DNA of 64,000 nucleotides from Escherichia coli (GTDB lineage Bacteria; Pseudomonadota; Gammaproteobacteria; Enterobacterales; Enterobacteriaceae), in assembly GCF_003334305.1 (NCBI RefSeq), contig NZ_QOWS01000003.1; one strand, 5' to 3'. Position 1 is the first letter of the stretch; each line of letters begins with the position of its first letter. Positions 58,945-61,900 of this stretch are shown one piece after another. Position numbers: made by a program.

Positions 58945-61900
58945 TAATTCGTTATTCAACGAGACGTAAAAACGCCGACCATTGGTCGGCGTTTTGCTTT
59001 TGTAGCGAGCACTTGCAGATATCGATAAGGGCCACAATAAGCAGCCCTACGAAGATAATTACTTAGCTGCCTGAATATCAGCCAGCATTGGGGCAAGGGC
59101 TGGGTTGTCCTTAGCGAAGTTTGCGTACATTGGCTGTACTTTCTCGATAAACGGAGCTTTATCTACCTGGTAGACTTTCACGCCCATTTTATCCAGTTTC
59201 GCAAATTCTTGTTTCTCTTCCTCGCTCCACAAGTCTTTCATATAGCTCATTGATTCTTTAGCTGCTTTTAATATAACTGCCTGATTTTCCGGGCTAAGTT
59301 TATCAAACGCAGCATTGCTCATCAGAACCACATCGGGAACCATAGTGTGTTCGTCAAGGCTGAAGGATTTTGCCACTTCACCGTGACGCATGGTGGTCAG
59401 CGCCATCACGCTGTTTTCTGCCATATCGACCACACCCTGCTGTAAGGCTGTATACAACTCGCCGTAATCCAGTGGCGTCGGGTTACCGCCCATGACTTTG
59501 ATCATTTCAACTGCGCCAGGGCTTGGCTGGACACGGACTTTCATGCCTTTCAGATCGTCTGGTTTCAGTACTGGTTTATTGCCATAGAAACTGCGGGCGC
59601 CTCCATCATAAAAAGTCAGCCCGAAATAACCTTTGCTTTTCGTTGAGTCGAGGATTTTTCTCCCGATATCGCCCTGCATGACCTGATAATAATGATCACG
59701 ATCGCGGAACAAATAAGGCAGGCTAAATAATTTATAGGAATTTTCAAATGCTTCCATTTCTGCCGCATTGGTTTTTACCAGGGGAATAGCGCCAGAACGA
59801 ATCAGCTCCATTGTTTCTCGTTGAGTACCCAATGTTCCATTTGGATAAATACGAATAGTAATATCACCGTTAGAGTACTCTTTGCTCTTTTTCGCAAAGA
59901 ACTCCATCGCTTTATGAACAGGATGAGACTTATCCTGATTATGACTCAGTTTTAATGTCACTGCCCAGGACTGGCTTGCGGATAACATAAGAACAGCACC
60001 GATAATGCCAGCGGATACTTTTATTTTCATAGATGTTCCTTTTCTAATAAATATGGCGGCAGGTGCCGCCAGTGAATGCGCATCAGTAGCCCAGTGCTCT
60101 TGGCAATGCCATACTGATTTGCGGAATATAGGTCACCATTGCCAGCACCAATACCATCACGGCATAGAATGGCAGCATAGGTTTGATAATTTTATTAATC
60201 GGTAATTTAGATACACTACAACCGACAAATAACACACTGCCTACAGGCGGAGTACAAATACCGATACACATGTTCAGTACCATGACAATACCAAAGTGAA
60301 TCGGGTCCATGCCCAGTTCGGTGACAACCGGTAAAAATATCGGCGTAAAAATCAGTACCGCCGGTGTCATATCCATAAAAGTGCCGATAATCAACAGGAT
60401 AATATTGATAATAAGCAGGATTATTATTGGGTTGTCAGAAATAGTGTTAAGCAAATCGAGAATCAGGAAGGGAACGTCAGCGTTTGACATTGCCCATGAC
60501 ATACCCATCGAAGAACCAATTAATAACAAGACAATTGCAGTGGTAATAACGGATTCCAGAAATATTTTAGGTAAATCTTTAACTGAGATTTCACGATAAA
60601 GAACCAGTGCAAGGAAAAGGGTATAAATTACTGCAATTGCGGAGGCCTCTGTCGGGGTAAAAATACCACTTAATACACCCCCCATAATTAAAATAATCAG
60701 GAAAATACTGGGGATAGCCATCCATATCGCAACGCCAGCCTGGCGTAAAGTCGGGCGTTCTGGCTTTGGATAACCGCGACGTACCGCGATAATACCGGCT
60801 ATTACCATCAGTGCCAGACCCAGCAAAATTCCCGGAACATAACCCGCCAGGAACAGTGCGGCAATAGAAGTACCACCACTGACCAGTGAATAGACGATTA
60901 ACGTATTACTTGGTGGAATAAGCAAACCCGTCGGGGCAGAGGCAACGTTAACCGCAGTACTGAATGCCGGGTCGTAACCCTCTTTAACCTGTTGCGGATG
61001 CATGACGCCGCCCATCGCAGCCGCCGAAGCCACGGCTGAACCAGAAATTGCCCCGAACAGCATATTGGCGAGAATATTACAGTGGGCAAGTGAGCCTGGC
61101 AGACGACCGCCGAGAATACGGGCAAAGTTGATTAATCGTCGCGCTATTCCTCCATGATTCATAATGTTGCCAGACAAGATAAAAAATGGGATTGCCAACA
61201 ACGTAAAACTATCTAACCCGGAGGCTAACCTTTGGGAAACCACACTCAATGCTGAGTTGAAATCGAGTTGTGTGGAAATTGATGCCAGTGTCGATAAACC
61301 AATGGCATAAACAATAGGTACACCTAATGCCAACATAAAAAAGAAGGCACCAAATAACACAATAATCGGTAACCAGTAATCCATAATTTCTCCATTCCTA
61401 CTATGGTTGGTTGTTGTTTGTTATCTTTAGAGTGGTTGTTTAAGTTCGGTTAAAACCATATCTATGGTGTATATAATAATAAGTACACCACTAATCGGGA
61501 TACTCATATATATATATCCCATCTGCCAGCCTAAAGCGGGCGAGGTTTGACCTGAATCGAATGTATCCATCGTTAATAGCCCACCACCATATACCATAAT
61601 GATGGTAGCGAAGATAATTACGATAATCTGAATACACAAAAATAAATGACGTCGGGCTTTTCCTTTCAGCATCATAGGTAGCAGGTCAATCGCCAGATGC
61701 CGGTTTTGCCCTGCGGTGTATGCCCCACCAAAAAGTCCAAGACAAATAAAGAGCAAACGGCTGAGTTCATCTGTAAAAATACTGGGACTAGTAAATATAA
61801 ATCGTGCAGCCACCTGCCACGTCACACATGCCACGATGATCGCCAAAATGGTAATGTTCAATGCTGCAAGCAGAGCATTAATAGATCTAATTATATTTCG

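What the first reader, a model, noticed from the sequence alone, without database searches (positions are those of the whole stretch)
60055..60070. Intra-operon stem-loop between TRAP permease and binding-protein genes
ggcggc-aggt-gccgcc forms a short GC hairpin in the 52-nt gap between the dctM-like stop and the dctP-like start, upstream of the binding-protein RBS on the minus strand. Such elements in transporter operons often stabilise the downstream mRNA segment so the binding protein is made in excess.
Basis: inference. Interest (0 to 1): 0.2.

Follow-up and report, generated by a model that had tools for sequence, protein, structure and literature searches.

The report
Hairpin between two TRAP transporter genes
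A small, stable GC-rich RNA hairpin does sit between the permease and binding-protein genes of an accessory E. coli TRAP transporter operon, but it is an ordinary, E. coli-only, weakly constrained terminator-like stem-loop rather than a conserved regulatory device.

Summary
On the minus-strand transcript, UGGCGGC-ACCU-GCCGCCA (window 60054-60071) forms a 7-bp stem of about -13.3 kcal/mol. It starts 11 nt after the dctM stop codon and ends 23 nt before the dctP ATG, inside a 52-nt spacer.

The window is E. coli. The genes are the last three of an 8-gene accessory operon next to rplI, present in 1462 of 5426 complete genomes.

Evidence against a selected role:
- Syntenic orthologous operons (Klebsiella huaxiensis and three metagenomic enterobacterial lineages) have a spacer of similar length but no stable hairpin (-1.3 to -4.7 kcal/mol, against -14.1 for the E. 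coli spacer).
- 172 of the 1462 E. coli carriers have an uncompensated stem G>A change that greatly weakens the hairpin.
- It is not a REP element, matches no Rfam family, and is not a repeated operator.

A U-rich tail (UAUUUAUU) exists only on the transcribed strand, and the terminator score is borderline.

Best reading: a young, lineage-specific hairpin that marks a transcript boundary, acting as a leaky intrinsic terminator and/or a stop for 3'-exonucleases after dctM. Interest is low.

The parts
60054..60071 (-). RNA hairpin UGGCGGC-ACCU-GCCGCCA: 7 bp (6 G-C and 1 U-A) with a 4-nt loop
   Evidence: Read directly. dG -13.3 kcal/mol. Present in the MFE and centroid structures. Pair probability 0.95-1.0.
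60044..60053 (-). U-rich tail UAUUUAUUAG immediately 3' of the stem (6 U in the first 8 nt, interrupted by A)
   Evidence: Flagged as terminator-like by the scan. The tail is U-rich only on the minus strand. d'Aubenton-Carafa-type score +2.1, against +37 and +38 for two clear terminators in the window.
60072..60082 (-). 11-nt unpaired linker between the dctM stop codon and the stem. It contains GC|AUU (60075-60079), which matches the RNase E motif RN|WUU.
   Evidence: Sequence. Motif definition from PMC5927463. A match by chance is plausible (about 1/64 per position).
60083..61384 (-). dctM-like TRAP large permease gene (433 aa); stop codon UGA at 60083-60085
   Evidence: TIGR00786, E 2.3e-137. 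RefSeq annotation of the identical locus.
59059..60030 (-). dctP-like TRAP substrate-binding protein gene (323 aa, with a signal peptide)
   Evidence: NF037995, E 6.4e-75. The start codon is conserved in orthologues.
60037..60041 (-). Shine-Dalgarno AAGGA of dctP, 6 nt before the ATG and not paired with the hairpin
   Evidence: Unpaired probability 0.67-0.88. Conserved in orthologues.
61427..61927 (-). dctQ-like TRAP small permease gene
   Evidence: Weak YiaM match. Annotated as TRAP small permease.
58969..58995 (.). Bidirectional terminator hairpin between the convergent rplI and dctP genes; this is the 3' end of the operon
   Evidence: 12-bp stem with flanking A and T runs.

Best explanation
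The element is a young, E. coli-lineage-specific GC hairpin on the polycistronic mRNA of an accessory 8-gene operon (ketoacyl reductase ... FAD oxidoreductase-dctQ-dctM-dctP). Physically it behaves as a transcript-segment boundary just after dctM.

The stable 7-bp stem is followed by UAUUUAUU. This should make a fraction of RNA polymerases terminate, as a leaky Rho-independent terminator. It should also stop PNPase and RNase II when they trim back from cuts made further downstream. Both effects would create 3' ends at about 60046-60053.

The net effect would be to uncouple dctP mRNA abundance from that of the upstream genes and, if anything, to lower it. The element is not a conserved, selected device for over-producing the binding protein.

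Shown here: the structure, its position, its strand-specific U-rich tail, its absence from orthologues, and its weak constraint within E. coli. Inferred: termination and exonuclease blocking.
For: - Structure: stable hairpin of -13.3 kcal/mol with pair probability of at least 0.95.
- Position: it starts 11 nt after the dctM stop codon.
- Tail: U-rich on the transcribed strand only. The terminator scan ranks it 3rd of 21 sites in the 8-kb region, and its score is borderline positive at +2.1.
- Company: the three other perfect GC-rich 7-bp hairpins in the window are all gene-end terminators.
- A relative: in a rearranged relative (L011, DctP 76% identical), dctM is followed by a textbook terminator and dctP is transcribed separately. 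A transcript end after dctM is therefore tolerated in this system.
- Precedent: stable internal hairpins defining 3' ends of operon segments are the commonest class of differential decay in E. coli (26 of 34 gene pairs; PMC5927463).
- Youth and weak constraint: orthologous spacers in K. huaxiensis, L009/L010 and L012 fold to only -1.3 to -4.7 kcal/mol, and the part of the L027 spacer that was recovered lacks the GC-rich 3' arm. Two loop SNP alleles and one uncompensated stem SNP allele (172 of 1462 genomes) segregate in E. coli.
Against: - No transcript data were available.
- The U-tract is interrupted (UAUUUAUU) and the terminator score is far below that of clear terminators (+2 against +37). 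Termination may therefore be negligible.
- The AUUAG-AAAGG part of the tail is also present in orthologues that lack the hairpin. The U-richness may simply be the ancestral AT-rich RBS region.
- Lowering dctP relative to dctQM makes little physiological sense, because binding proteins are normally needed in excess.
- Internal protective hairpins described in E. coli typically lack a U-tract and are conserved (PMC5927463). This one has a U-rich tail and is not conserved.
Confidence: 0.4

Rival explanations
1. RNase E cuts the polycistronic mRNA in the single-stranded linker just 5' of the hairpin. The hairpin at the new 5' end, together with the operon's terminal terminator at the 3' end, then gives a long-lived monocistronic dctP mRNA, so the binding protein is made in excess.
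For: - There is precedent. In 30% of decay-regulated E. coli operons a middle or last gene is stabilised, usually with an RN|WUU RNase E site close upstream of a stable structure (PMC5927463).
- GC|AUU lies in the unpaired linker 6 nt 5' of the stem.
- A strong terminator follows dctP.
- dctP has a good, exposed SD.
- Binding protein in excess is physiologically sensible.
Against: - The hairpin is absent from every syntenic orthologue outside E. coli. In the published cases, 8 of 10 operons kept the cleavage site and structure in Salmonella.
- An uncompensated stem mutation is present in 12% of carriers.
- The motif match is expected by chance about 15% of the time.
- Six unpaired nucleotides would remain 5' of the stem. 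From my own recollection of the ompA and papA work, this is more than is usually tolerated for 5' protection.
- The published 5' protective structures lay inside the upstream coding region, not in a spacer.
Confidence: 0.2
2. A neutral by-product. A chance or mutationally generated palindrome in an AT-rich spacer of a horizontally acquired island, with no measurable effect on expression and no selection maintaining it.
For: - Thermodynamic significance is only marginal (z -1.7, with 12 of 200 shuffles folding as well).
- The window-wide count of such stems is only modestly above shuffles.
- It is not conserved in orthologues.
- A stem-weakening SNP is present in 172 of 1462 genomes.
- An IS1 insertion right next to it is tolerated in one strain.
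- Parts of the island are pseudogenised in several strains.
Against: - A -13 kcal/mol GC stem in an untranslated spacer will form (probability at least 0.95). On general knowledge it is expected to impede 3' exonucleases and polymerase to some degree.
- In the sampled alleles, 2 of 4 loop positions but only 1 of 14 stem positions are polymorphic. This is the direction expected for a constrained stem, though the difference is not significant.
- 1290 of 1462 carriers do not have the stem-weakened allele, and all other alleles sampled keep the stem perfect.
Confidence: 0.3
3. A DNA-level element: an operator for the island's TetR-family regulator or another protein, a REP/BIME element, or a remnant of a mobile element.
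For: It is a perfect 7-4-7 inverted repeat in DNA.
Against: - No second copy exists in the 20.5-kb island region even with 3 mismatches allowed.
- The divergent TetR promoter region carries a different palindrome, AGATCAACCAACTAGATGGTTGATCT.
- It shows no REP consensus, although REPs are detected elsewhere in the window.
- It is the single copy in the window.
- The 82-nt region containing it occurs once in nearly every carrier genome (median 1 place, at most 2).
- No Rfam match lies at the site.
Confidence: 0.03

Closest known systems
Leaky intra-operon Rho-independent terminators (for example the attenuators between rpsU and dnaG and between rplL and rpoB in E. coli; cited from general knowledge)
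   Same: A GC-rich stem-loop directly after a stop codon, a U-rich tail on the transcribed strand only, and a position between cistrons of one operon.
   Different: The U-tract is interrupted and the score is borderline. The element is restricted to one species and is polymorphic. No transcript evidence is available.
Internal 3' protective hairpins of differentially decaying operons (malE-malF REP; menBCE and others; PMC5927463)
   Same: A stable hairpin at the boundary between two cistrons that would block PNPase and RNase II and so define a stable upstream segment.
   Different: In malEFG the protected upstream gene is the binding protein, whereas here the binding-protein gene is downstream. 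The element is not a REP. The published structures lacked U-tracts and were 75-91% conserved across genera; this one is not conserved.
papBA-type 5' protective stem-loop created by RNase E cleavage (Bricker and Belasco 1999, as cited in PMC5927463)
   Same: A hairpin in the intercistronic region upstream of the last, presumably most needed gene; an RN|WUU-like motif just 5' of it; and a strong terminator at the 3' end.
   Different: The cleavage is unproven. Six unpaired nucleotides would remain 5' of the stem. The hairpin is not conserved in orthologous operons.
E. coli yiaMNO (the other QMP-ordered TRAP operon of E. coli)
   Same: The same gene order, with the binding-protein gene last.
   Different: The yiaN-yiaO spacer is only 12 nt and has no room for a hairpin. 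An M-P hairpin is therefore not a general feature of TRAP operons.

Membership tests
Rho-independent (intrinsic) terminator | Stable GC-rich stem-loop on the transcribed strand | tested here: met
   7 bp with 6 G-C pairs, dG -13.3 kcal/mol
Rho-independent (intrinsic) terminator | Run of about 7-9 U immediately 3' of the stem | tested here: inconclusive
   UAUUUAUU has 6 U in 8 nt but is interrupted at positions 2 and 6. It passes the simple scan. The d-score of +2.1 compares with +37 and +38 for clear terminators (the formula was recalled from d'Aubenton-Carafa 1990).
Rho-independent (intrinsic) terminator | Transcript 3' ends map to the U-tract, or termination is seen in vitro | not testable with these tools
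   No RNA-seq or Term-seq data are accessible for an island-carrying strain
papBA-type 5' protective hairpin | RNase E cleavage site (RN|WUU) in unstructured RNA just 5' of the hairpin | tested here: inconclusive
   GC|AUU at 60075-60079 matches the motif, but chance probability is about 15% and no cleavage data exist
papBA-type 5' protective hairpin | Downstream cistron has a longer half-life than the upstream one | not testable with these tools
   Needs a rifampicin chase
papBA-type 5' protective hairpin | Structure conserved in orthologous operons (8 of 10 operons in the published set) | tested here: not met
   K. huaxiensis, L009/L010 and L012 spacers fold to -1.3 to -4.7 kcal/mol against -14.1; L027 lacks the GC-rich arm
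REP/BIME protective element (malE-malF type) | Matches the REP consensus and is repeated in the genome | tested here: not met
   A REP pattern search finds REPs elsewhere in the window but none at 60054-71. The palindrome is single-copy in the window, and the 82-nt region containing it occurs once in nearly every carrier genome (median 1 place, at most 2).
REP/BIME protective element (malE-malF type) | Lies 3' of the binding-protein gene that it stabilises | tested here: not met
   The binding-protein gene is 3' of the hairpin
Any curated RNA family (Rfam 15) | Covariance-model match | tested here: not met
   No hit overlaps 60031-60082, even at E up to 10 or at gathering threshold
Conserved structured cis-regulatory RNA | Base pairs maintained by compensatory change across relatives | tested here: not met
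   No compensatory pairs were found. The only stem variant (G>A, 172 genomes) creates an A.C mismatch, and pair probability falls to 0.01-0.73.

The most novel reading that the evidence does not exclude
The hairpin is a recently evolved, translation-sensitive attenuator. The dctM stop codon lies only 11 nt before the 5' arm, so a ribosome finishing dctM could delay stem formation and let polymerase read through into dctP. On untranslated transcripts the terminator would form. Binding-protein synthesis would thus be coupled to successful translation of the membrane subunits. Alternatively, the hairpin plus U-tail could define the 3' end of an Hfq-binding small RNA derived from the dctM 3' region. 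My evidence excludes neither reading. The geometry is borderline, and the lack of conservation argues against a refined mechanism.
Probability: 0.05. Interest if true: 0.35.

Novelty: new member of a known kind. Interest (0 to 1): 0.08.

Why it matters
It matters little. If the hairpin does terminate or stabilise transcripts, it would be one more example of stoichiometry tuning inside a transporter operon. It would also be a tidy natural experiment, because about 12% of carrier strains have a weakened stem and one strain has an IS1 element beside it. It opens no long-standing question. The more interesting object is the uncharacterised 8-gene catabolic/TRAP island itself, which is present in about 27% of complete E. 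coli genomes.

Tried and rejected
- Rfam searches of 58000-64000 at E up to 10, and of the whole window at gathering threshold, found nothing at the site.
- A REP/BIME identity was rejected.
- An operator for the island's TetR regulator was rejected. There is no second copy in 20.5 kb, and the promoter region carries a different palindrome.
- An internal promoter for dctP in the spacer was rejected. No site lies there, and promoter-like sites in the region are at chance level (11 found against 12.6 expected).
- A + strand function was rejected, because there is no U-tail on that strand (d -33.7).
- The genome-contig scan with DctP returned only 3 loci, of which one is a QMP operon without a GC hairpin (L003).
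- More distant DctP homologues (55-61% identity; Providencia, Serratia, Vibrio, Aeromonas, Xenorhabdus) have dctP divergent from dctQM. They therefore have no M-P spacer and are uninformative.
- yiaN-yiaO in K-12 has a 12-nt spacer and offers no analogue.
- Literature searches for this island returned nothing relevant.
- The effect of the hairpin on SD accessibility is small and depends on context (0.67-0.88 against 0.60), so it was not pursued.

Full report
**Observation.** The + strand at 60055-60070 reads GGCGGCAGGTGCCGCC. On the minus (coding) strand the RNA is UGGCGGC-ACCU-GCCGCCA. A flanking U-A pair gives a 7-bp stem with a 4-nt loop at 60054-60071.

- ViennaRNA gives -13.3 kcal/mol for the isolated hairpin.
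- The hairpin is kept in both the MFE and the centroid structures of 66-nt and 161-nt contexts.
- Stem pair probabilities are 0.95-1.0 in contexts extending 100-300 nt upstream of the ATG.

The ORF at 60083-61384 (433 aa) is a DctM large permease (TIGR00786, 2.3e-137). The ORF at 59059-60030 (323 aa) is a DctP binding protein (NF037995, 6.4e-75). The ORF at 61427-61927 is a DctQ-like small permease. The spacer at 60031-60082 is exactly 52 nt. The stem begins 11 nt after the UGA and ends 23 nt before the ATG. The SD AAGGA (60037-60041) lies downstream of it and is unpaired.

**Is it more than chance?** Only modestly.

- Shuffles of the local 66 nt fold as well in 12 of 200 cases (z -1.7).
- Perfect 7-bp stems with at least 6 GC pairs give 7 hits (4 distinct hairpins) in the window, against 3.0 +/- 1.8 in dinucleotide shuffles.
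- The other three hairpins (11431-51, 56848-65, 58973-91) all lie at gene ends and are followed by T-runs.

In this genome, hairpins of this quality are essentially terminators.

**Context.** The window is E. coli. The 3.1-kb TRAP region is 100% identical to many complete genomes. The RefSeq annotation shows an 8-gene minus-strand operon:

- 3-ketoacyl-ACP reductase
- sugar-phosphate isomerase/epimerase
- enoyl-CoA hydratase
- CoA transferase
- FAD-dependent oxidoreductase
- dctQ
- dctM
- dctP

A divergent TetR/AcrR gene lies upstream. The whole island is inserted between rplI and the LysM-like (peptidoglycan-binding domain) gene that precedes fklB. The hairpin region is present in 1462 of 5426 complete genomes, almost always once per genome. 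A strong bidirectional terminator (58969-58995) separates dctP from the convergent rplI.

**Comparative test.** DctP homologues at 76-87% identity led to syntenic loci: K. huaxiensis (L006-L008), two metagenomic enterobacterial lineages (L009/L010 and L012), and a short contig (L027). In these loci the end of dctM (…LGY*), the SD and the dctP start all align well. The spacers are of similar length (44-48 nt) but contain no GC hairpin. Whole-spacer MFE values are -4.7 (K. huaxiensis), -4.3 (L009) and -1.3 (L012), against -14.1 kcal/mol for E. coli. L027 shows GTTAAC where E. coli has the 3' arm.

In a rearranged, GC-rich relative (L011), dctM is followed by a textbook terminator and dctP is convergent with its own upstream region. 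The paralogous E. coli TRAP operon yiaMNO has only 12 nt between yiaN and yiaO. More distant DctP homologues sit in glucuronide/uronate loci with dctP divergent from dctQM, so they have no comparable spacer. The hairpin is therefore an E. coli-lineage novelty and not a feature of the operon family.

**Variation within E. coli.** Over an 82-nt segment centred on the spacer, the 1462 carriers break down as follows.

| Allele | Genomes |
|---|---|
| Window allele | 1046 |
| Synonymous GGC>GGT in dctM only | 174 |
| GGC>GGT plus stem G>A (UGGCGGC to UAGCGGC) | 172 |
| Loop A>G | 31 |
| Others, including a loop C>U allele | about 39 |

The stem G>A change makes an uncompensated A.C mismatch. In that allele the hairpin falls to a 5-bp core (whole-spacer MFE -9.4 kcal/mol), and its ensemble probability falls from at least 0.95 to 0.01-0.73 depending on context. 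No compensatory change was seen. In the sampled alleles, loop positions vary more than stem positions (2 of 4 against 1 of 14). This is the direction expected for a constrained stem, but it is not significant. One strain carries an IS1 element with a 9-bp target duplication (60050-60058) immediately 3' of the hairpin, separating dctP from the operon.

**What it is not.**

- It matches no Rfam family.
- It is not a REP. REPs are found elsewhere in the window, none here.
- It is not a repeated operator. No second copy exists in the 20.5-kb island region with up to 3 mismatches, and the TetR-side promoter region carries an unrelated 26-bp palindrome.
- No promoter-like site lies in the spacer.

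**Mechanism.** Three readings remain.

(a) Segment-boundary hairpin at the end of dctM. The stem is followed by UAUUUAUUAG on the transcribed strand only. The consensus scan calls it terminator-like. A d'Aubenton-Carafa-type score, computed with a formula recalled from memory, is +2.1 against +37 and +38 for clear terminators in the window. It drops to about -42 for the G>A allele. I therefore expect low-efficiency termination at most. Independently of termination, a stable GC stem in an untranslated spacer should stall PNPase and RNase II. This is the commonest mechanism of differential operon decay in E. coli (26 of 34 gene pairs; PMC5927463).

RNase E cuts at RN|WUU just 5' of a hairpin, and the hairpin then protects the downstream cistron. 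This was the minority class (30%) in the same study, and 8 of its 10 operons with a mapped site kept the site and structure in Salmonella. A GC|AUU motif does lie 6 nt 5' of the stem, and dctP ends in a strong terminator, so the anatomy is compatible. The absence of the hairpin from all orthologues, and the common uncompensated stem SNP, argue against a selected role.

(c) A neutral palindrome with no measurable effect.

I rank (a) at 0.40, (c) at 0.30 and (b) at 0.20. A DNA-level site is at about 0.03, with the remainder for more exotic readings, such as a translation-sensitive attenuator or a 3'-derived sRNA. (a) and (b) are not mutually exclusive at the physical level.

**Verdict.** The element is a new instance of a well-known kind, an intercistronic terminator-like or protective hairpin. 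Interest is low. The decisive data would be Term-seq, 5'-P mapping and half-lives in a carrier strain, with the natural G>A allele and engineered compensatory mutants as controls.

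Noticed in passing
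window 58969-64000 and beyond (L025 1-10400): An uncharacterised 8-gene accessory operon (3-ketoacyl-ACP reductase, sugar-phosphate isomerase/epimerase, enoyl-CoA hydratase, CoA transferase, fumarate-reductase-like FAD oxidoreductase, dctQMP) with a divergent TetR/AcrR gene, inserted next to rplI. It is present in 1462 of 5426 complete E. coli genomes and is syntenic in Klebsiella huaxiensis. The substrate is unknown. The nearest other DctP relatives (55-61% identity) sit in glucuronide/uronate loci (GH2, UxuA, GntR). Two literature searches found no description of it.
   Followed up: partly
L013 3205-4005 (window equivalent 60050-60058): In strain cS76a an IS1A element is inserted immediately 3' of the hairpin with a 9-bp target duplication, CGCCATATT. 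It cuts dctP off from the operon. The CoA-transferase gene of the same strain has an internal stop.
   Followed up: yes
L005 3644-4948; L015; H1 (strain H15): The island is decaying in several lineages. dctM is fragmented into three short ORFs in CP125919, dctP has an internal stop in strain ET745, and an IS3 element lies inside dctM in strain H15.
   Followed up: no
L006 4976-4992; L009 4967-4992: In the K. huaxiensis and L009 orthologues the M-P spacer can pair CCUUA with UAAGG, which would sequester the dctP Shine-Dalgarno. It is weak (-4 to -5 kcal/mol) but shared by two lineages. E. coli lacks this pairing.
   Followed up: no
L025 9590-9615 (outside the window): A 26-bp near-perfect palindrome, AGATCAACCAACTAGATGGTTGATCT, lies in the divergent promoter region between the TetR/AcrR gene and the first gene of the operon. 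It is a candidate TetR operator.
   Followed up: no
L011 5972-6280: In a GC-rich relative (Logan DRR121775) the same FAD oxidoreductase-dctQ-dctM unit ends in a canonical intrinsic terminator. dctP is inverted, lying convergent to dctM with its own upstream region and terminator.
   Followed up: partly
window 9275-9321 (+): A Guanidine-II (mini-ykkC) riboswitch aptamer scores above the Rfam gathering threshold (50.4 bits).
   Followed up: no
window 57426-57510 (+); 24269-24341 and 24381-24453 (+): An RpsF leader (110 bits) lies upstream of rpsF-priB-rpsR-rplI. Two tRNA genes with equal Rfam scores lie 40 nt apart.
   Followed up: no
window 5729-5758, 6961-6990, 40951-40980, 47708-47790: Paired matches to the REP consensus (GCCGGATGCGGCG / GCCGGATAAGGCG) mark BIME/REP elements in other intergenic regions of the window.
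   Followed up: no
window 61903-61927: The dctQ start is ambiguous. The longest ORF gives 166 aa, starting at 61927 and overlapping the stop of the FAD oxidoreductase gene. RefSeq annotates 158 aa. Orthologues are called both ways (166 aa in K. huaxiensis, 158 aa in L009 and L012).
   Followed up: no
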